In this document: positions 5,469-44,997 of the stretch, in pieces
Numbering within the stretch: the stretch's first letter is position 1
How the letters are laid out: each line of letters opens with the position of its first letter
Notes under the pieces: generated by a model
Told to the model about the DNA's origin: nothing
The model's input: the letters and a program-made list of their open reading frames with translations, nothing else
The model's database searches: none
Origin: Escherichia phage SmurfNell
Strand: one strand, 5' to 3'
Length of the DNA: 64,000 nt
Sequence record: OR896824.1
Translations under genes and position numbers: made by a program

Positions 5469-6243
5469 TATTATTTTTCTCCAATAGTTCTTTAATCGAC
5501 AGGATTTCTATCCCATTCGTTTCGGCTTTCTTATAAGATGAGGAAGAACGTTTTGATTCATCCTCACAGATTAGGTATTTGACGTCTTTGGTAACGGACT
5601 TCTTAACCGTATATCCTAGACTTTCTAAATAGTTTGTTGCATCCGTTCGATTTGCAAAATCTTGCAAAGATCCGGTAATACAGACCGTGATTCCATTTGG
5701 CTGGGCAACTAAATCATCTGTAATGATGATATCCGCTTTAGCACCTCGAATACCCGTTGAGAATTTCCACGGTAATTCAATAACATCCTTGCCTTGTGGG
5801 GAATTTAGCCAGGTTTTGTAATTTTCTCCAGCCTTGCCGTCAGCCTTCACATCGTGGAAGCTAGTGCAATTTTGGGACAGTTTCTTTGCTGCAACCTCTC
5901 CAATAAGAGGAATTCCTAAAGAACCGAGAACTGAACCAAAGTCAATGTCTCCGCGAACCTTAGTATTTAACTCGCTAATCAATTTAGCGGCAACCTTGCT
6001 ACCCACAGCTCCGACCAAATCTTCTTCGGTCAGGTAAAACAGTTCTGAGATCTTAGTCAGCTCCAGCTTCTCAATAGTTTTCGGGCCAAAGCCCTTTAAC
6101 TTCATTTTTGTGCAGAAGTTCTCGATTAACTTACTTGATTGCGCTGGACAGTTGGACTTATTCCTACAGAATAATTGCCCGTTGACAAGATCTAGCTTAG
6201 AACCACAAGAGGGACATTGTGTTGGAATTTCGATTTTCATCAA
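5461..6243 (-). CDS. ligB: NAD-dependent DNA ligase, C-terminal subunit (Zn finger, HhH, BRCT)
   Basis: CPSCGSKLDLVNGQLFCRNKSNCPAQ zinc finger and BRCT-like C-terminus typical of the LigA C-terminal half; own promoter and RBS upstream. Confidence 0.75.
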   Translation of the reverse strand: MMKIEIPTQCPSCGSKLDLVNGQLFCRNKSNCPAQSSKLIENFCTKMKLKGFGPKTIEKLELTKISELFYLTEEDLVGAVGSKVAAKLISELNTKVRGDIDFGSVLGSLGIPLIGEVAAKKLSQNCTSFHDVKADGKAGENYKTWLNSPQGKDVIELPWKFSTGIRGAKADIIITDDLVAQPNGITVCITGSLQDFANRTDATNYLESLGYTVKKSVTKDVKYLICEDESKRSSSSYKKAETNGIEILSIKELLEKNNNV

Positions 6244-33084: not shown

Positions 33085-33937
33085 ATAAATTAGAGAACAG
33101 CGAGCCGATTACGCTGAGTGAGTTTAGTGATTCCTACTAGGATAGCTACTCCACTGAATAGAGTCGGTGAGTTGGAGACTAGTAAGTACTCTGAGAGAGG
33201 CTACGAGCTAACGCTTATTGCTATTGATAGGGAACTGAAAATCTGCGGAAAACTCGGGAGCTGTCCCGAAATCTCGTAAACTCTTCTCTAGTTTATGTTA
33301 GTGGGGTGTCGAACTGACTTATGTGATAACACTGCCGTCCTAGTATAAACGGTAATATCAAACCGTAACTGGTGGAAGATGCAGGTTCGAATCCTGCGGT
33401 CGGAAAGAATCAGATAACTCGGGCTTATACCGGATAAGCATTCGCTGCTGTAGTACATACTATGACGGTTCAGGAGGTACGCCTCCTGATCAGTATTAGG
33501 TTAGAATCGAAACAGCTAAACCACGAGGAAACCTGACGGCCTCAACCAAACTCGGAACTCGGGATCACTGCCTAGTGTGTACCCCGTTTAACCTGAGACT
33601 AGGCATCCAGCTTCGCATCGAAAATCGGAGGTGCGATTCTAACAGACCGCGTGAATATGAGAGTGGGAAACGCTGACATGAGAGATGTCACTAATGGTGC
33701 CCAATAGTACAGGTAATTCGCGATAATTCCTGTTGAGCGGCAGCAGTAGGCTGGGAGTCATGACCTAAGCCTAACCGAGTTCTTCACATACGGAGAACAT
33801 AACCACAAAGTCACCCTGACTTAAACTGGAAGATATTGTCTGACGGAAGGGCTGCAGAGCTTAATCTGAGGGGGCTGACCCTACCTACCGTCGGGTATCT
33901 TTAAGAGCTTTTATAAGAGTTCTTAAAAATACCTAAA
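33085..33937 (+). other. ORF-free transcribed region (putative ncRNA / tRNA precursor leader) containing a degenerate tRNA-like element
   Basis: About 850 nt downstream of promoter 33050-33078 with no ORF of 60 aa or more on either strand; ends at tRNA-Arg(TCT); contains several hairpins (e.g. CAGGAGG-TACG-CCTCCTG at 33487-33504). Confidence 0.35.
33346..33417 (+). other. degenerate tRNA-like element (canonical T-arm, 8-nt putative anticodon loop, imperfect acceptor stem)
   Basis: GCAGG-TTCGAAT-CCTGC T-arm and ACGGT/ACCGT hairpin with 8-nt loop; acceptor pairing has a U-U mismatch and no CCA. Confidence 0.25.
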
Positions 33938-40933: not shown

Positions 40934-41010
40934 TGCGATCGGGGCTGGCTTGGTAATGGTACTCCCCTGTCACGGGAGAAAATGTGGGTTCGAATCCCAT
41001 CGGTCGCGCC
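40934..41010 (+). tRNA. tRNA-Asp (anticodon GTC)
   Basis: Acceptor GCGATCG/CGGTCGC, anticodon stem-loop CTCCC-CTGTCAC-GGGAG, T-loop TTCGAAT, G73, CCA. Confidence 0.7.
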
Positions 41011-41087
41011 AATTTTTGCAGGACGCTGGTATAGATAACCACCGCGTGGGAAGTGTCTATATTTAGAGCACTGCAAAACATAATAAT

Positions 41088-41163
41088 ACATCCATAGCTC
41101 AATGGTTAGAGCTACCGCCTCTTAAGCGGAGGGTTCTAGGTTCAAGTCCTAGTGGGTGTACCA
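41088..41163 (+). tRNA. tRNA-Lys (anticodon CTT)
   Basis: Acceptor ACATCCA/TGGGTGT, D-arm GCTC-AATGGTTA-GAGC, anticodon loop CTCTTAA, T-arm CTAGG-TTCAAGT-CCTAG, CCA. Confidence 0.65.
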
Positions 41164-41169
41164 AACATC

Positions 41170-41370
41170 AGAGTAGCGTGATGTACTGCAAAGACCCAAA
41201 GTCCGGGGTGGACTTCTTGATTCAAAGGAGCAGGCATTAATTATCATTCTAGCGTGGTGGAGAGGGGACACCAGCTTGCCGAGGGTAGAAGCTCGTTCGA
41301 TTCGAGTGAAAGAATGGTTCTCGTAAATCCGCACAAGTGATAGCAGGTTCAAGTCCTGCCTAGATTGACT
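41170..41370 (+). other. unresolved tRNA-like / structured RNA region between tRNA-Lys(CTT) and tRNA-Gly(GCC)
   Basis: Contains two T-arm-like hairpins (CTCG-TTCGATT-CGAG; GCAGG-TTCAAGT-CCTGC) and a TGGTG...CACCA hairpin, but no cloverleaf could be folded by hand. Confidence 0.3.
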
Positions 41371-41376
41371 TATTAT

Positions 41377-41450
41377 GCGTTCGTAGTTAAAAGGTATAAT
41401 TTTTGGTTGCCAACCAGAAGTTGAGGGTTCGATTCCCTCCGACCGCACCA
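41377..41450 (+). tRNA. tRNA-Gly (anticodon GCC)
   Basis: Acceptor GCGTTCG/CGACCGC (one U-C mismatch), anticodon stem-loop TTTGG-TTGCCAA-CCAGA, T-arm GAGGG-TTCGATT-CCCTC, CCA. Confidence 0.65.
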
Positions 41451-41698
41451 AATTTAGGTTTCTGCTTCCTAGAGAACTGACGCCTAGATAAACAAGGCGA
41501 TGAGTTTCCGGCCGGTTCTAGTCGCTGAAAATCCTCCCGACCAGGTAGGTGTAAGTAAACGAAAGTTTACTTATTAAGTAAGTCCGACACATCGGCGGGT
41601 GTGTTCTAGTACTTAAAGAAGGTCTCGCAAACTTTCTCGCTAGCATGAGTTGATAGCTCGGTGACTTACCTAATAAGTAAATTTATTAAAAAATGTAG

Positions 41699-41727
41699 TT
41701 GCTATTTAGCTTAATTCTCTGTATAAT
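41699..41727 (+). promoter_or_regulatory. T5-type sigma70 promoter upstream of the tRNA-Pro block
   Basis: TTGCTA-17-TGTATAATAT. Confidence 0.65.
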
Positions 41728-41759
41728 ATATTTTATAAAGTGAGTTAACAAAGAATATT

Positions 41760-41837
41760 CTCCGTGTAGCTCAGTTTGGCCAGAGCGTTTCGTTTGGGGC
41801 GATAGGGTCGGGGGTTCAAATCCTCCCACGGAGACCA
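41760..41837 (+). tRNA. tRNA-Pro (anticodon TGG)
   Basis: Acceptor CTCCGTG/CACGGAG, D-arm GCTC...GAGC, anticodon loop TTTGGGG, T-loop TTCAAAT, CCA; begins about 33 nt downstream of promoter -10. Confidence 0.6.
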
Positions 41838-41843
41838 AACAAT

Positions 41844-41921
41844 TGCGGGTTAGATCTCTGGTAGAGATCGCTAGTCTCATAAGCTAGAAAGAGGTAGGTT
41901 CGATTCCTGCACCCGCTTCCA
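41844..41921 (+). tRNA. tRNA with CAT anticodon (Met or Ile2), U1-U72 mismatch
   Basis: Palindromic D-stem GATC/GATC, anticodon stem-loop CTAGT-CTCATAA-GCTAG, T-loop TTCGATT, CCA; terminal acceptor pair unpaired. Confidence 0.55.
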
Positions 41922-41942
41922 ATTTAATAGAAGGATTTCTAA

Positions 41943-42107
41943 ATGAAATTGTTTCGTTTAAAAGTAAGTGATATACGTTCTAGTAAAGATCGTAAGAAGT
42001 ATCCACTAGCTCACTACGGTAAAGATGAAAACGAAGTGATGGCGGAATTTGGTATTAATCATCCTTACTTGAAAATATACTCTATCAAAGAAGTATACAT
42101 GTATTAA
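41943..42107 (+). CDS. hypothetical small protein (54 aa)
   Basis: Short ORF between two tRNAs, below track cutoff. Confidence 0.3.
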   Translation: MKLFRLKVSDIRSSKDRKKYPLAHYGKDENEVMAEFGINHPYLKIYSIKEVYMY

Positions 42108-42109
42108 AT

Positions 42110-42188
42110 AGATCGCTAGCTCAATTGGTTTAGCAGCACCCGGCTTTTAACCGGAAGGTTCTGGGTTCGAGTCCCAGGCGGTCTACCA
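42110..42188 (+). tRNA. tRNA-Lys (anticodon TTT)
   Basis: Acceptor AGATCGC/GCGGTCT, anticodon hairpin CCGG-CTTTTAA-CCGG, T-arm CTGGG-TTCGAGT-CCCAG, CCA. Confidence 0.65.
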
Positions 42189-42205
42189 ATTTAAAGGAAT
42201 TTGTT

Positions 42206-42523
42206 ATGAATATTAACAAAGTTCTAGAAACAATATCAGAAATGTCTGGTAGAGCTGGAAAACGCTTTACTGAACTATGTATTAAAAATCAAAAAATACC
42301 AGAACATCAATGTCATTATTGTCGAGACTGTGAACAATACCATGAAATGTGTGTGGTTGAAGATTGGATCTGGGATCAGATAAGAAAAGAACAATCCAAA
42401 GATATTGTTCTATGTTTTACTTGTATGGAACGACGTTTAGGACGTAAAATTACTCTTAAAGATCTTAAACATGTTCCCTGTAACGCTCCTTACTTCATTG
42501 GTTTTAGAATGGAGAGATTTTGA
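42206..42523 (+). CDS. Cys-rich putative zinc-binding protein (105 aa)
   Basis: CHYCRDCEQYHEMC...CFTCMERR; AAGGAA RBS. Confidence 0.5.
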   Translation: MNINKVLETISEMSGRAGKRFTELCIKNQKIPEHQCHYCRDCEQYHEMCVVEDWIWDQIRKEQSKDIVLCFTCMERRLGRKITLKDLKHVPCNAPYFIGFRMERF

Positions 42524-42666
42524 TGATAATCTGGTTTTACTTAATGAAACAAAAAGTCAAGCAGTACAACGTATTTTCTGCTGATTTTACTATTGGAATG
42601 TTCTTAGCAGGATTATGTGAGTTTCTGTTTGAAGCATTCTTAATCGGAAGTCTTTTGCTCGGTTAG
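42523..42666 (+). CDS. small hydrophobic protein (47 aa)
   Basis: ATGA overlap with upstream gene; predicted single TM; 3' end overlaps tRNA-Val. Confidence 0.3.
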   Translation: MIIWFYLMKQKVKQYNVFSADFTIGMFLAGLCEFLFEAFLIGSLLLG

Positions 42667-42730
42667 TTTAATGGGAGAACCCCGTCTTTACACGGCGGTT
42701 GCGATAGTTCGATTCTATCACCGAGTACCA
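42657..42730 (+). tRNA. tRNA-Val (anticodon TAC)
   Basis: Acceptor GCTCGGT/ACCGAGT, D-stem GTTT/GAAC, anticodon stem-loop CCGTC-TTTACAC-GGCGG, T-arm GATAG-TTCGATT-CTATC, CCA. Confidence 0.7.
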
Positions 42731-42749
42731 ATTAACTCAAAATAAGGAA

Positions 42750-43109
42750 TTGCAAATGCAATTATCAAGCAAGGTTCAAGGCTACTTCGGTCATGTAACA
42801 ATGGAGTTCGCTATCTCTAAAGGTTGGGACTTCGAACAAGATTTAGCTGAGTTCTACAAAGATATTGATCTGAACGTACCGTACATGGGACTCTCTACTG
42901 GTCAGGAAATCACAGAAGCCGATGTATTCAAGGCAAGTCAAGGTGAGATAACACCTAGTTTTGCCGAGTTCTGGTTAGGAATTACTCTGAAAGATGATGC
43001 ACCGGATGGTGGTGTGGTTATGCAGAGTATGCACTCTGGAAGCTCTGATTACCTTTTCGTTAGCGACGTTAAGGAAATACAAGAAATCTGCAAAAATGTA
43101 CTTGCTTGA
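42750..43109 (+). CDS. hypothetical protein (119 aa)
   Basis: ORF with AAGGAA RBS after tRNA-Val. Confidence 0.55.
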   Translation: MQMQLSSKVQGYFGHVTMEFAISKGWDFEQDLAEFYKDIDLNVPYMGLSTGQEITEADVFKASQGEITPSFAEFWLGITLKDDAPDGGVVMQSMHSGSSDYLFVSDVKEIQEICKNVLA

Positions 43110-43131
43110 TACTTAATTTCTTGTTATAATA
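43103..43131 (+). promoter_or_regulatory. T5-type sigma70 promoter upstream of an ORF-free region and the tRNA-Ala pair
   Basis: TTGCTT-17-TGTTATAATAT plus TTATATAAATTGATGAGGAG leader. Confidence 0.65.
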
Positions 43132-43392
43132 TTTATATAAATTGATGAGGAGAAATCCTCATCAAAGTTCACTAAGGTATTAGCTCGACCTAGGACTGGC
43201 TGCCAAAAAGCACGGTTGCAATTAGACCCCTAATGGCGGGGGATACTTTGCAAGAAGTTCTAGATTAGTCCACTAGATTCAGCGGCAACTGAATAGTGTA
43301 TCGGGTTTGTGAAGAGCGGTTATCCTCTACTGGCTAATGTCTGAGGGTAATACGCACGCCGAGCTAATAGCCTTAGTAAACTTAAAGATTTT

Positions 43393-43466
43393 GGGGATAT
43401 AGTTTAATGGTAGAACATCTGCTTTGCACGCAGAAGACGAGGGTTCAACTCCCCCTTTCTCCACCA
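43393..43466 (+). tRNA. tRNA-Ala (anticodon TGC)
   Basis: Anticodon arm TCTGC-TTTGCAC-GCAGA as in E. coli tRNA-Ala; G3-U70 identity pair; CCA. Confidence 0.7.
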
Positions 43467-43472
43467 AAATTT

Positions 43473-43548
43473 GGGGTCATAGGTTATTTGGTTAAACTTA
43501 CTGCCTTGCAAGCAGTGGAACTCAGTTCAATTCTGAGTGACTCCACCA
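43473..43548 (+). tRNA. tRNA-Ala (anticodon TGC), second copy
   Basis: Acceptor GGGGTCA/TGACTCC with G3-U70, D-stem GGTT/AACT, anticodon stem-loop ACTGC-CTTGCAA-GCAGT, T-arm CTCAG-TTCAATT-CTGAG, CCA. Confidence 0.65.
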
Positions 43549-43561
43549 AATTAGAGGAAGC

Positions 43562-44023
43562 ATGGCTAGAACAGATATATTGGAAAGAAAGGATGAAATT
43601 CTTCTCTGGATAGAAGAAAATCAACCCAAAGCTGAAATTGCTAGAAGATTACGCTGCAAAGTTGATACACTGAATACTTATCTGAAAAAGATGGGAATAC
43701 AATATTCAGGTAACTCTGCTAGAAAAGGTTTTATACGTTCTGAGATACAGGATGGGTATATTCCGGCAGTGAATTACTTTTACAAAAATAGCCCAATATC
43801 TTCTAGTCAGCTTAGAATAAAGATACTACGTGATGGCTTAAAACCTCACAAATGTGAAAATTGTAATTTATCTGAATGGATGGGAGTTCCAATCCCCTTA
43901 GAGTTAGAGCATAAAGATGGTGATCATTATAATAATGAGTGGGATAATTTAGCTTTATTATGTCCCAACTGTCATACACTAACAGATACACATTCAGGTA
44001 AGAATAAAGGAACATACGCGTGA
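43562..44023 (+). CDS. HNH homing endonuclease (inside tRNA cluster)
   Basis: HNH core LELEHKDGDHYNNEWDNLALLCPNCH; flanked by tRNA genes on both sides. Confidence 0.7.
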   Translation: MARTDILERKDEILLWIEENQPKAEIARRLRCKVDTLNTYLKKMGIQYSGNSARKGFIRSEIQDGYIPAVNYFYKNSPISSSQLRIKILRDGLKPHKCENCNLSEWMGVPIPLELEHKDGDHYNNEWDNLALLCPNCHTLTDTHSGKNKGTYA

Positions 44024-44094
44024 TTGATGGAATTGGCATACATACCGTCCTTAGAAGTCGGGTTTTGAGGGTTCGAATCCCTTGTCACGCACCA
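44018..44094 (+). tRNA. tRNA with TAG anticodon (Leu-type) but short variable loop
   Basis: Acceptor GCGTGAT/GTCACGC, anticodon stem-loop CCGTC-CTTAGAA-GTCGG (one U-U), T-arm GAGGG-TTCGAAT-CCCTT, CCA; overlaps the HNH stop codon. Confidence 0.45.
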
Positions 44095-44111
44095 ATTTTG
44101 TAGTAAACAAC

Positions 44112-44203
44112 GGAAGAGCAAATCGATAGGTGACGAAAACCGCTTGGAAAGTGGCTGACTTGTGAAAGCAGGCTTGAGAGTTCGAATCTCTCTTCTTCCG
44201 CCA
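44112..44203 (+). tRNA. tRNA-Ser (anticodon GGA), type II
   Basis: Acceptor GGAAGAG/TTCTTCC, anticodon hairpin CCGC-TTGGAAA-GTGG, long variable arm, T-arm GAGAG-TTCGAAT-CTCTC, G73, CCA. Confidence 0.6.
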
Positions 44204-44209
44204 AACAAT

Positions 44210-44299
44210 AGAAGATAGGACGTAGTGGTACGTAACCGGTCTTGAAAACCGGCCCGCTGTAGTGATACGGTGATGGTTCGACTCCATTATCTTCTGCCA
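44210..44299 (+). tRNA. tRNA-Ser (anticodon TGA), type II
   Basis: Perfect acceptor AGAAGAT/ATCTTCT, anticodon stem-loop CCGGT-CTTGAAA-ACCGG, long variable arm, G73, CCA. Confidence 0.75.
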
Positions 44300-44450
44300 A
44301 ATCTTGAAGTATGCCGGAATCGGTAGACGGGGCTTCCTAAAGGGCGTAAGAGGAACATCCACTCCTCATAAGATACCCGAAAACGAGGCTGAGATAAATG
44401 GTCTATCTCGTGAAGGTTCAAGTCCTTCTGCTTCTTGATATTCAATGGCT
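44300..44450 (+). other. unresolved tRNA-like element (canonical T-arm GAAGG-TTCAAGT-CCTTC, no assignable acceptor stem)
   Basis: Perfect T-arm plus upstream 6-bp hairpin GAGATA-AATGGTC-TATCTC; about 130 nt between flanking tRNAs with no ORF. Confidence 0.3.
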
Positions 44451-44519
44451 CAAAGAGTAACGGTGCACCTTTCTAGAGAATTTTCTGGGCGAGAATCCAG
44501 AAGTAATCAACTAGTTGTT

Positions 44520-44626
44520 AGTGTGATGAGTTTCGGAGAGCCGCCACAATTGAAGTCTTTAGAATGGGTATCGCCCTTTAGCCCCTCCGAAAGGGATAAC
44601 TAGAGATTTCAATTGTGGCTATATCA
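44520..44626 (+). repeat. long-range inverted repeat (GCCACAATTGAA ... TTCAATTGTGGC) enclosing a hairpin and overlapping the 5' end of tRNA-His
   Basis: 12-bp perfect inverted repeat with arms around 44548-44559 and 44609-44620; internal hairpin CCCTTT...AAAGGG. Confidence 0.45.
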
Positions 44627-44691
44627 TAATTGGTTAATGATCCTGATTGTGAATCAGGCCTATGTGGATTCGAATTCCACTAGCCACCCCA
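44615..44691 (+). tRNA. tRNA-His (anticodon GTG)
   Basis: Acceptor GTGGCTA/TAGCCAC, D-stem TCAT/ATGA, anticodon stem-loop CCTGA-TTGTGAA-TCAGG, T-arm GTGGA-TTCGAAT-TCCAC, C73, CCA. Confidence 0.75.
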
Positions 44692-44697
44692 AATATT

Positions 44698-44772
44698 GCG
44701 TCCTTATTTCAATGGAAAGAATGTAAAGCTACGAACTTTACGATCGGGGTTCGATTCCCTGAGGATGCACCA
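44698..44772 (+). tRNA. tRNA-Arg (anticodon ACG)
   Basis: Acceptor GCGTCCT/AGGATGC, anticodon stem-loop TAAAG-CTACGAA-CTTTA, T-arm CGGGG-TTCGATT-CCCTG, CCA. Confidence 0.7.
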
Positions 44773-44796
44773 ATTAACTTATATAGGAAATAAAAT

Positions 44797-44997
44797 ATGG
44801 CTGATTTCTGCAAAGAATGCTCTATCGATATGTGGGGCAAAGATACTGGTGATCTTTCTGGTCTGATTACAGAAGCCGAAGTTAAAGAAGGCTATGGTGC
44901 TGTTGTAATCTGTGAAGGTTGTGGTATTATTCGTGTTGATCATAATGGTAAACGTCTAGAAGAACCAGATCCAATTGCCACGGTTCCTGTAGAATAA
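44797..44997 (+). CDS. small Cys-rich zinc-ribbon protein (66 aa)
   Basis: CKEC...CEGCG motifs; AGGAAA RBS. Confidence 0.5.
   Translation: MADFCKECSIDMWGKDTGDLSGLITEAEVKEGYGAVVICEGCGIIRVDHNGKRLEEPDPIATVPVE

What the first reader, a model, noticed from the sequence alone, without database searches (positions are those of the whole stretch)
41170..41370. Unresolved tRNA-like structured RNAs inside the tRNA cluster (also 44300-44450)
Both intervals carry perfect T-arm hairpins (GGTTCAAGTCC type) plus additional stable hairpins, have no ORF, and sit exactly where tRNA genes would be expected, but I could not fold a canonical cloverleaf. They may be pseudo-tRNAs, tRNAs with unusual architecture, or tRNA-derived regulatory RNAs.
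Basis: seen in the sequence. Interest (0 to 1): 0.5.

Follow-up and report, generated by a model that had tools for sequence, protein, structure and literature searches.

The report
Anticodon-less tRNA-shaped RNAs in T5-like phage
The two gaps in this T5-like phage's tRNA cluster each encode a conserved tRNA-shaped RNA whose anticodon loop is replaced by a structured insert; they match bacteriophage T5's long-annotated "RNA2" and "RNA1", whose function is still unknown.

Summary
The window is a T5-like phage. ARAGORN finds 30 tRNAs, and neither it nor Rfam calls anything in either gap.

Both gaps hold conserved RNAs whose helices are kept by compensatory changes:
- RNA A, 41246-41369.
- RNA B, about 44298-44442.

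Both have a tRNA frame (acceptor, D arm, T arm and a stem at the anticodon-stem position), but a 48-55 nt insert replaces the anticodon loop. Neither has the encoded CCA that 29 of the 30 tRNAs here carry.
- RNA A's insert holds a second T-arm-like hairpin and a small A-UGG-U hairpin.
- RNA B has a tRNA-Leu-like frame with a long variable arm.

They match the misc_RNA genes rna2 and rna1 of T5 record AY692264 (about 90% and 83% identity, same gene order). Their existence is therefore already known.

What I did not find described: RNA A belongs to a family of at least 25 distinct sequences. Members occur in T5-like phages, T4-like Acinetobacter phages and viral contigs of 200-360 kb. The insert is nearly invariant while the tRNA frame covaries freely.

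Most likely they are stable, non-decoding RNAs matured like tRNAs that present a binding module. A decoy or anti-defence role is only a guess.

The parts
41246..41369 (+). RNA A, whole gene. It matches T5 rna2.
   Evidence: The RNA A model R1 scores 83.4 bits here, the only member in the window. It is 89.6% identical over 125 nt to T5 rna2.
41246..41252 (+). RNA A acceptor 5' strand, ATTCTAG. It pairs with 41360-41366 (CTAGATT), with a U.U mismatch at position 2:71.
   Evidence: All 7 pairs change on both sides across the family, for example GACTTTG/CAAAGTC and TTACCGT/ATGGTAA.
41255..41273 (+). RNA A D arm: stem TGGT/ACCA and an 11-nt loop containing GG.
   Evidence: All 4 pairs show compensatory change.
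41274..41278 (+). RNA A stem X 5' strand, GCTTG, at the anticodon-stem position. It pairs with 41334-41338 (CAAGT).
   Evidence: 100% of cells are paired, and all 5 pairs change on both sides.
41283..41286 (+). RNA A stem Y 5' strand, GGGT, proposed to pair with 41327-41330 (ATCC). Weakly supported.
   Evidence: The pairs are nearly invariant. There is one compensatory change (T5 has GGGC/GUCC), and 6 of 25 sequences are unpaired at the fourth pair.
41291..41307 (+). RNA A inner T-arm-like hairpin, GCTCG TTCGATT CGAGT.
   Evidence: Four of 5 pairs change on both sides, and the loop UUCRAUU is invariant.
41311..41321 (+). RNA A small hairpin, AGAA-TGG-TTCT, with the invariant core A-UGG-U.
   Evidence: In alignment A7 the pair next to the closing A-U is AU 5, UA 3, CG 2, GU 2, with 12 of 13 sequences paired. 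The outer pairs are weaker.
41322..41333 (+). RNA A conserved strand, CGTAAATCCGCA. It includes the 3' strand of stem Y.
   Evidence: Near-invariant in sequences found by BLAST (My1, Acinetobacter phage 133) and by a search pattern that left the bases after CGTAA free.
41343..41359 (+). RNA A T arm, GCAGG TTCAAGT CCTGC.
   Evidence: Four of 5 pairs change on both sides.
41360..41369 (+). RNA A acceptor 3' strand, CTAGATT, then GAC. There is no encoded CCA.
   Evidence: 29 of 30 tRNAs in the window end in CCA; this RNA does not.
44298..44442 (+). RNA B, whole gene with its extended terminal helix. It matches T5 rna1.
   Evidence: The RNA B model R2 scores 169.7 bits here. It is 82.8% identical over 145 nt to T5 rna1.
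44305..44311 (+). RNA B acceptor 5' strand, TGAAGTA. It pairs with 44429-44435 (TGCTTCT). Position 1:72 is U.U.
   Evidence: Five of 7 pairs change on both sides, and 1:72 is unpaired in 15 of 16 sequences.
44301..44303 (+). RNA B helix extension, ATC, pairing with 44437-44439 (GAT) across a UU/UU internal loop.
   Evidence: Two of 3 pairs change on both sides; the Klebsiella-phage version has GC and CG there.
44314..44330 (+). RNA B D arm of tRNA-Leu type: CCG/CGG with G13.A22, and loop AATCGGTAG.
   Evidence: The arm is invariant, so covariation says nothing. It aligns with tRNA-Leu D arms, and tRNA-Leu genes are the best non-member hits of R2.
44332..44336 (+). RNA B stem at the anticodon-stem position, GCTTC, pairing with 44385-44389 (GAGGC).
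   Evidence: Three of 5 pairs change on both sides, and 98.8% of cells are paired.
44349..44368 (+). RNA B insert hairpin with the invariant 8-nt loop ACATCCAC (44355-44362).
   Evidence: Four of 6 pairs change on both sides.
44391..44409 (+). RNA B long variable arm, GAGATA AATGGTC TATCTC. The loop is invariant and contains A-UGG-U.
   Evidence: One pair changes on both sides (AU, UA, CG), and 100% of cells are paired.
44412..44428 (+). RNA B T arm, GAAGG TTCAAGT CCTTC.

Best explanation
Both loci are genes for stable, non-decoding RNAs built on a tRNA frame. They are the counterparts of bacteriophage T5 RNA2 (RNA A) and RNA1 (RNA B).

**Shown.**
- Each has a covarying acceptor stem, D arm, T arm and a stem at the anticodon-stem position.
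- In each, a conserved structured insert replaces the anticodon loop.
- Neither encodes CCA.
- They sit in one orientation among tRNA genes. No promoter-like site lies between RNA A and its neighbouring tRNAs. The only terminator-like + strand hit is RNA B's own T arm.

**Inferred.**
- They are transcribed with the early tRNA operon.
- The tRNA-like acceptor/T-arm domain lets RNase P and the 3'-end trimming enzymes cut them out, and makes them stable. This is the principle of engineered 'tRNA scaffolds', where an RNA of interest replaces the anticodon arm.
- The working part is the insert. In RNA A it is a distal module: a T-arm-like hairpin plus a GG-loop hairpin, which could form a second tRNA-elbow-like knob on a lengthened anticodon arm. 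In RNA B it is the invariant ACAUCCAC loop plus an A-UGG-U variable-arm loop on a tRNA-Leu-like body.

**Most likely mode of action.** They bind a protein or RNA that normally recognises tRNA shape, as a competitor or decoy. A tRNA-targeting host defence nuclease or a tRNA-processing factor are candidates. They cannot be charged or decode.

**How likely.**
- About 0.85 that they are the T5 rna2 and rna1 counterparts.
- About 0.65 that they are functional non-decoding RNAs on a tRNA frame.
- About 0.25-0.3 that they act as a decoy or binder of a tRNA-recognising factor.
For: **Identity.** T5 record AY692264 annotates misc_RNA rna2 (125 nt) and rna1 (144 nt) in the same positions relative to the tRNA genes. 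Identity is 89.6% and 82.8%.

**Conservation.** About 500 phage records hold each RNA.

**Structure.**
- RNA A: hand-made alignment A7 has 92.9% of cells paired against 30-44% in slid controls, with 24 of 30 pairs changing on both sides. Model-based alignment A11, with 25 distinct sequences, has 91.7% paired and 25 of 30 pairs.
- RNA B: 92.3% paired against 36-50%, with 17 of 39 pairs changing on both sides.

**tRNA frame.**
- Ordinary tRNAs match model R1 end to end at 14-31 bits; members score 35-89 bits.
- The Rfam tRNA model spans RNA B if 61 nt are skipped at the anticodon arm.
- tRNA-Leu genes are the next-best hits of R2.

**Not decoding tRNAs.** ARAGORN and Rfam are negative. There is no 7-nt anticodon loop. 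There is no encoded CCA, while 29 of 30 tRNAs in the window have one.

**The insert is the constrained part.** Its sequence is nearly invariant across phages whose frames share almost no sequence. Two members (L069, L270) have no tRNA gene anywhere in the fetched locus of 5-10 kb.

**Co-transcription.** The nearest strong promoter-like site (41699-41727) lies downstream of RNA A and tRNA-Gly.

**Context.** T5 tRNA-Lys neutralises the PARIS defence system, so this T5 region is already known to carry counter-defence functions (PMC11464382).
Against: - There are no expression data for this phage. The only basis for calling them 'stable RNAs' is the T5 GenBank annotation and my memory of 1980s T5 work, which I could not read.
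- No binding partner is identified.
- The conserved loops show no significant complementarity to E. coli 16S, 23S or 5S rRNA.
- T5 tolerates deletions within its tRNA region in the laboratory (PMC11464382). I did not map whether those deletions remove rna1 or rna2. If they do, any function is conditional.
- In that study, cloned fragments of the deleted T5 region other than the one carrying tRNA-Lys did not rescue infection under PARIS. If rna1 lay on one of them, it is not a PARIS suppressor.
- Stem Y, and therefore the exact fold of RNA A's distal module, is weakly supported.
- The alignments were built or fitted with the structure in mind, which inflates the percentage paired. The slid controls and the number of pair types argue this is not the main effect.
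Confidence: 0.65

Rival explanations
1. They are decaying pseudo-tRNAs: former tRNA genes disrupted by insertions and kept only because they lie in a tRNA cluster.
For: They have a tRNA frame but no anticodon loop and no CCA. T5 tolerates deletions within its tRNA region. The cluster is mosaic, with homing endonuclease genes in relatives.
Against: Compensatory changes maintain every major helix. The insert is more conserved than the frame, and RNA A members occur in unrelated phage groups with completely different frame sequences. The invariant loops have persisted across about 500 records.
Confidence: 0.05
2. They are intron-containing or otherwise unusual tRNA genes that become working, chargeable tRNAs after the insert is removed.
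For: The insert sits exactly where bacterial tRNA introns sit, in the anticodon arm. The frame is complete and, for RNA B, tRNA-Leu-like. LeuRS of E. coli does not read the anticodon (my own knowledge).
Against: - The inserts are 48-55 nt, far below group I intron size.
- Rfam finds no intron or ribozyme family.
- Removing the insert leaves a stem with no loop and no anticodon.
- The two bases before the conserved CGUAA vary, so there is no U33.
- There is no encoded CCA.
- RNA B's terminal helix continues past position 72, with U.U at 1:72 and no A73.
Confidence: 0.04
3. They act only in cis, as tRNA-like processing or stability signals. RNase P and RNase E would use them to cut the polycistronic early transcript and protect neighbouring tRNAs or small mRNAs. 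The released RNA would have no function in trans.
For: They are embedded in an operon of tRNAs and small ORFs with few promoters. The acceptor/T-arm domain is the RNase P recognition unit (established knowledge).
Against: A punctuation role needs only the acceptor/T-arm domain. It does not explain the near-invariant insert sequences or the covarying insert helices. It also does not explain members that stand away from any tRNA gene (L069, L270).
Confidence: 0.1
4. They are base-pairing small RNAs. The invariant loops (ACAUCCAC and AAUGGUC in RNA B; AUGGU and CGUAA in RNA A) would be seed sequences that pair with host or phage RNAs.
For: The invariant single-stranded loops are displayed on covarying stems, as in many small RNAs.
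Against: No complementarity to E. coli rRNAs beyond chance. The loops are short (7-8 nt). RNA A's conserved bases sit in T-loop and GG-loop contexts that more likely make internal tertiary contacts. I did not search mRNA or tRNA targets.
Confidence: 0.1

Closest known systems
Bacteriophage T5 RNA2 (rna2) and RNA1 (rna1), misc_RNA features of GenBank AY692264 (T5 st0)
   Same: Same gene order. rna2 lies in the same cluster segment, with rnaIV and promoter P13a downstream; tRNA-Gly follows it here and in BF23. rna1 lies between tRNA-Ser and the rnaI/rnaIII/tRNA-His group. Identity is about 90% and 83%, and the lengths match. Models R1 and R2 score the T5 copies at 81.7 and 163.9 bits.
   Different: Nothing substantive; these are counterparts of the same genes. 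The GenBank record gives no structure or function. No Rfam family matched either RNA.
Bacteriophage T4 RNA C (species 1) and RNA D (species 2)
   Same: These are small RNAs encoded in a phage tRNA cluster. Their roles were still described as unknown in 2010 and 2022 (PMC3014915, PMC9697503). T4 rnaC has a perfect T arm and an acceptor-like helix with central UU/UU mismatches, which resembles RNA B's terminal helix.
   Different: There is no sequence homology. R1 scores rnaC at 23.7 bits, the level of an ordinary tRNA. R2 has no hit on rnaC or rnaD at E<=0.001. They are the same kind of RNA, not the same family.
Canonical tRNA (Rfam RF00005), in particular class II tRNA-Leu for RNA B
   Same: Acceptor stem, D arm with GG, T arm with a TPsiC-type loop, and a stem at the anticodon-stem position. 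RNA B also has a long variable arm and a tRNA-Leu-type D arm.
   Different: No 7-nt anticodon loop and no encoded CCA. Both score below the Rfam gathering score, and ARAGORN does not call them.
Bacterial Y RNA-like YrlA (tRNA-mimicking module bound by Rsr/Ro60)
   Same: A non-coding RNA with a tRNA-like domain that cannot decode (PMC4201824 abstract, listed; the details of its layout are from my memory).
   Different: As I recall it, the ends of YrlA form the Ro-binding stem on the anticodon side and the acceptor-like stem is closed by a loop. Here the ends are at the acceptor stem and the extra module is on the anticodon side. No Rfam Y-RNA family matched. I did not look for an Rsr gene.
Engineered tRNA scaffolds for recombinant RNA (Ponchon and Dardel design; from my own knowledge)
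   Same: The same design principle: the anticodon arm of a tRNA is replaced by a cargo RNA, and the tRNA body provides processing and stability.
   Different: Those are artificial constructs. This is an analogy for how the phage RNAs may work, not a family.
tmRNA tRNA-like domain
   Same: An acceptor/T-arm domain without an anticodon arm.
   Different: ARAGORN finds no tmRNA. Rfam gives no tmRNA hit in either interval. The RNAs are 124-145 nt, with no tag reading frame and no CCA.

Membership tests
Canonical decoding tRNA | Called by tRNA finders or reaches the Rfam RF00005 gathering score | tested here: not met
   ARAGORN finds nothing in either gap. Rfam tRNA scores 12.5 bits on RNA A and 22.7 bits on RNA B, against a gathering score of 29.
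Canonical decoding tRNA | 7-bp acceptor stem, D arm and T arm in cloverleaf order | tested here: met
   These helices are supported by covariation. RNA B has U.U at 1:72.
Canonical decoding tRNA | 5-bp anticodon stem closed by a 7-nt loop with U33 and an anticodon | tested here: not met
   The stem is present, but it encloses a 55-nt insert in RNA A and a 48-nt insert in RNA B. There is no conserved U33.
Canonical decoding tRNA | 3' CCA end, encoded in this phage's tRNA genes | tested here: not met
   29 of 30 tRNAs in the window end in CCA. RNA A continues GAC-TTA and RNA B continues T-TGATA. Addition of CCA after transcription cannot be tested with these tools.
T5 rna2 / rna1 (AY692264 misc_RNA) | Sequence match over the full annotated length | tested here: met
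   89.6% over 125 nt and 82.8% over 145 nt; alignments.
T5 rna2 / rna1 (AY692264 misc_RNA) | Same position relative to the neighbouring tRNA genes | tested here: met
   RNA B lies after tRNA-Ser(tga) and before the rnaI/rnaIII equivalents and tRNA-His, as rna1 does in T5. RNA A lies before tRNA-Gly(gcc), as in BF23, in the same cluster segment as T5 rna2.
T5 rna2 / rna1 (AY692264 misc_RNA) | Accumulates as a discrete stable RNA in infected cells | not testable with these tools
   This needs a Northern blot or small-RNA sequencing. The primary T5 literature was not in the library.
Group I intron-containing tRNA | Intron of about 200 nt or more with the group I core, matched by Rfam Intron_gpI | tested here: not met
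   The inserts are 48-55 nt, and no intron or ribozyme family appears at E<=10.
tmRNA | tRNA-like domain plus a tag reading frame, detected by ARAGORN or Rfam | tested here: not met
T4 RNA C / RNA D | Homology to T4 rnaC or rnaD | tested here: not met
   R1 scores rnaC at 23.7 bits, the level of an ordinary tRNA. R2 has no hit on either at E<=0.001.
YrlA / bacterial Y RNA | Match to an Rfam Y-RNA family, and ends forming the Ro-binding stem | tested here: not met
   No Rfam hit. The ends pair in the acceptor helix instead. I did not check whether Rsr is encoded.

The most novel reading that the evidence does not exclude
RNA A would define an undescribed and widespread class of phage non-coding RNA. 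It has a tRNA body in which the anticodon loop is replaced by a near-invariant module: a T-arm-like hairpin, an A-UGG-U hairpin and the strand CGUAAAUCCGCA. That module may form a second tRNA-elbow-like knob. The family occurs in T5-like phages, T4-like Acinetobacter phages and viral contigs of 200-360 kb. The same module is also grafted into the variable-arm position of other tRNA-like frames. Together with the tRNA-Leu-framed RNA B, it would act as a decoy or inhibitor of a host factor that recognises tRNA shape, such as a tRNA-cleaving defence nuclease. That would give a function to the 'stable RNAs' of phage tRNA clusters.
Probability: 0.25. Interest if true: 0.75.

Novelty: already known. 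Interest (0 to 1): 0.45.

Why it matters
Phage tRNA clusters are now seen as counter-defence tool kits; T5 tRNA-Lys against PARIS is one example (PMC11464382). The non-tRNA RNAs in these clusters (T4 RNA C and D; T5 RNA1, RNA2, RNAI, RNAIII and RNAIV) still have no assigned function (PMC3014915, PMC9697503 for T4).

This analysis gives two of them a structure backed by covariation. It shows they are tRNA frames carrying a cargo module rather than broken tRNAs. It also shows that RNA A's cargo module is conserved across unrelated phage groups. That turns an annotation gap into testable hypotheses: mutate the loops, pull down partners, and plate on hosts with tRNA-targeting defence systems.

Practically, these RNAs are missed by ARAGORN and Rfam. 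In many deposited genomes the spot is unannotated or carries a 'hypothetical protein' call, so a covariance model would improve phage annotation.

Tried and rejected
- **Single-sequence folding.** z-scores are not significant (+0.53 for the whole first gap, +0.24 for RNA A, -1.30 for RNA B). The minimum-energy fold of RNA A disagrees with the covariation. I did not use it as evidence.
- **Rfam at every sensitivity**: no family other than sub-threshold tRNA.
- **An anticodon-arm reading of RNA A's 'CUCGUAA AUCC'** (Thr CGU or Tyr GUA mimic). Rejected because the two bases before CGUAA vary and the proposed 5' strand does not covary. The resemblance to this phage's tRNA-Tyr anticodon arm may be chance.
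- **Homology to T4 rnaC and rnaD.** Rejected.
- **Complementarity of the conserved loops to E. coli 16S, 23S and 5S rRNA.** Nothing beyond shuffled controls. An earlier RNAduplex version timed out.
- **Distant relatives of RNA B.** The loose pattern gave chance hits only. No locus outside the T5-likes matched the strict RNA B pattern, and R2 found no member outside them.
- **RNA A in bacterial genomes.** The first 120 pattern hits all lack the family architecture. By my estimate a 17-base pattern in 596 Gb gives about 280 chance hits.
- **The first loose RNA A pattern** mostly hit a prophage coding sequence.
- **Plain MAFFT alignment misplaced the helices**. I therefore padded a hand-made alignment with N so that the register was kept.
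- **Neighbouring proteins around a stand-alone member (L069).** By eye, mostly small proteins, none pointing to a function, plus one 286-aa ORF that I did not run through any family search.
- **Primary T5 literature.** The Ksenzenko and Shlyapnikov papers and Glukhov 2018 are not in the library.

Full report
**What the window is.** BLAST of 41000-44800 against phage records finds 585 records. Nearly all are T5-like phages (family Demerecviridae) of Salmonella, Escherichia and Klebsiella, at 80-97% identity. ARAGORN finds 30 tRNA genes, all on the + strand between 33938 and 46248, and no tmRNA.

**Checking the observation.** Neither gap is called by ARAGORN, by Rfam at gathering score or by Rfam at E<=10. 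The T-loop motif GGTTCRANTCC occurs 22 times, all on the + strand within the cluster, against 0.17 expected from shuffles. Only three of these lie outside ARAGORN tRNAs: 41346, 44415 and 33384. So the two 'orphan T arms' are real and not chance. Single-sequence folding is not significant. That is normal for tRNA-like RNAs and explains why no cloverleaf could be drawn by eye.

**What they correspond to.** The T5 st0 record AY692264 annotates six misc_RNA genes among the tRNAs: rna2, rnaIV, rna2H, rna1, rnaI and rnaIII.
- Window 41245-41369 aligns to rna2 at 89.6% over 125 nt.
- Window 44303-44446 aligns to rna1 at 82.8%.
- The neighbouring tRNA genes correspond.

Each RNA is present in about 500 phage records. 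Almost all leave the spot unannotated or call a 'hypothetical protein' there. So the existence of these RNAs is known, but no structure or function is recorded in anything I could search. The primary T5 papers were not available.

**Structure of RNA A (41246-41369).** I collected relatives by BLAST and by pattern scans of viral contigs. Plain MAFFT misplaced the helices, so I built a structure-guided alignment by hand and kept its register by padding with N. The layout, 5' to 3', is:
- acceptor stem, 7 bp
- two unpaired bases
- D arm
- stem X, at the anticodon-stem position
- a 55-nt insert
- the 3' strand of stem X
- a 4-5 nt variable loop
- T arm
- acceptor 3' strand
- GAC, with no CCA

Support from the hand-made alignment of 13 sequences: 92.9% of cells are paired, against 30-44% when the 3' partners are slid, and 24 of 30 pairs change on both sides. 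A covariance model built from it (R1) finds one member in the window at 83.4 bits. The model-based alignment of 25 distinct members gives 91.7% paired and 25 of 30 pairs.

Ordinary tRNAs match R1 end to end at 14-31 bits by skipping the insert. That shows directly that the frame is a tRNA frame.

**The insert of RNA A** is the most conserved part. It contains:
- GGGU, proposed to pair with a later AUCC as 'stem Y'. This stem is weakly supported: one compensatory change in T5, and six sequences unpaired at the fourth pair.
- A second T-arm-like hairpin with the loop UUCRAUU. Four of its 5 pairs covary.
- A short hairpin with the invariant core A-UGG-U. The pair next to the closing A-U appears as AU, UA, CG or GU in 12 of 13 sequences.
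- The strand CGUAA-AUCC-GCA.

A T-loop hairpin next to a GG-loop hairpin is what forms the 'elbow' of a tRNA. I therefore infer, but have not shown, that the tip of the lengthened anticodon arm folds into a second elbow-like knob.

**Distribution of the RNA A family.** Members occur in:
- T5-like phages, including Pectobacterium phage My1 and Klebsiella phages
- T4-like Acinetobacter phage 133 and a related 170-kb contig
- viral contigs of 164-364 kb

Most lie inside tRNA clusters. L069 and L270 have no tRNA gene anywhere in the fetched locus of 5-10 kb. In three loci (L399, and the near-identical pair L407 and L414) the same module lies between a short anticodon-like hairpin and the T arm, which is the variable-arm position. 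The first 120 pattern hits in bacterial genomes are all chance matches.

**Structure of RNA B (about 44298-44442).** Sixteen distinct T5-like sequences give 92.3% of cells paired against 36-50% in slid controls, with 17 of 39 pairs changing on both sides.
- The frame is class II and tRNA-Leu-like. The D arm has the tRNA-Leu geometry (CCG/CGG with G13.A22) and there is a long variable arm.
- After true members, tRNA-Leu genes are the best hits of the RNA B model R2.
- The Rfam tRNA model aligns to 44305-44436 end to end at 22.7 bits if 61 nt are skipped at the anticodon arm.
- The anticodon-stem equivalent (GCUUC/GAGGC) encloses a 48-nt insert: a 3-bp helix and a hairpin with the invariant loop ACAUCCAC.
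- The variable-arm loop AAUGGUC is invariant and carries the same A-UGG-U as RNA A.
- The terminal helix has U.U at position 1:72, a second U.U, and then three more pairs.
- There is no A73 and no CCA.

I found RNA B only in T5-like phages.

**Why they are not working tRNAs or wreckage.** There is no 7-nt anticodon loop and no conserved U33. There is no encoded CCA, although 29 of 30 tRNAs here have one. The inserts are far too small for group I introns and match no Rfam family. Against decay: every major helix is kept by compensatory change, and the inserts are more conserved than the frames.

**How they probably work.**
- Shown: the architecture, the conservation, the orientation among tRNA genes, and the lack of promoter-like sites between them and their tRNA neighbours. 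The nearest strong promoter-like site is at 41699-41727, downstream of RNA A and tRNA-Gly. The only terminator-like + strand hit is RNA B's own T arm.
- Inferred: they are co-transcribed with the tRNAs, cut out by tRNA-processing enzymes and stabilised by the tRNA body. They display the insert to a partner that recognises tRNA shape.
- Speculative: a decoy role against tRNA-targeting host factors. It is motivated by the known counter-defence role of T5 tRNA-Lys.

The loops show no complementarity to E. coli rRNAs beyond chance.

**Comparison with known systems.** They are the counterparts of T5 rna2 and rna1. They are of the same kind as T4 RNA C and RNA D, but not homologous to them. The roles of the T4 RNAs were still described as unknown in 2010 and 2022. 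They differ in layout from YrlA-type Y RNAs and from tmRNA.

**Verdict.** The finding is real and correctly located apart from the 5' 80 nt of the first interval. The RNAs are already known to exist, with unknown function. The secondary structures and the breadth of the RNA A family are, as far as I could check, undescribed. They make the function question testable.

Noticed in passing
window 44447-44546: Counterpart of T5 'rnaI'. It has a 5-bp terminal stem (GGCUC/GAGCC) followed by GCCA, an encoded CCA-like end, but no T arm. It starts immediately after RNA B.
   Followed up: partly
window 44547-44614: Equivalent of T5 'rnaIII'. A 15-bp closing stem forms a very stable hairpin (MFE -23.5 kcal/mol, z = -3.79) that abuts the 5' end of tRNA-His at 44615. 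It is shorter than the 106-nt T5 version.
   Followed up: partly
window 41583-41634 and 43178-43312: Partial matches to T5 'rnaIV' (81% over 53 nt) and 'rna2H' (79% over 135 nt). These are further unannotated RNA genes of the T5 tRNA region.
   Followed up: no
window 33334-33405: Rfam tRNA at 29.3 bits, just at the gathering score, with a perfect T-loop motif at 33384. ARAGORN does not call it, and by eye the acceptor pairs at only 5 of 7 positions. Possibly a degenerate tRNA.
   Followed up: partly
window 41164-41243: An 80-nt spacer 5' of RNA A. It is 95-96% identical in Klebsiella T5-like phages whose RNA A core is diverged, and it is absent from T5 and BF23. It behaves as a mosaic module with no significant fold (z = -0.72).
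   Followed up: partly
L399 5635-5745; L407 2993-3106; L414 about 5900-6020: tRNA-like RNAs not called by ARAGORN. They carry the RNA A module (T-arm-like hairpin, AUGGU, CGUAA) in the variable-arm position, after a short anticodon-like hairpin with a 6-9 nt loop. Folding z-scores are about -2.4.
   Followed up: partly
L004 2409-2547 (T4 rnaC, minus strand): T4 RNA C has a perfect T arm and an acceptor-like helix, CGAUUCG/CGUUUCG, with central UU/UU mismatches. This recalls the UU/UU internal loop in RNA B's terminal helix.
   Followed up: no
L069 8960-9102: A 143-nt stretch hit weakly by both models (R1 18 bits, R2 20.6 bits), on a contig where ARAGORN finds no tRNA in the fetched locus. Possibly another long tRNA-like RNA.
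   Followed up: no
L162 7916-8084 and L269 11919-12087: RNA A members with an extra insertion of about 46 nt between the inner T-arm-like hairpin and the AUGGU hairpin, on contigs of 113 kb and 251 kb.
   Followed up: no
L096 12400-12474; L397 5451-5523; L411 6751-6823: ARAGORN calls tRNAs with a CUA anticodon (labelled tRNA-Pyl), that is, amber-suppressor-type tRNAs, in several phage tRNA clusters that also carry RNA A.
   Followed up: no
L007 (Escherichia phage Baret), 3441-4366: The locus-tag numbering skips tRNA0017 between tRNA-Leu and tRNA-His, the segment that holds the RNA B copy. A tRNA call by the annotation pipeline may have been dropped there.
   Followed up: no
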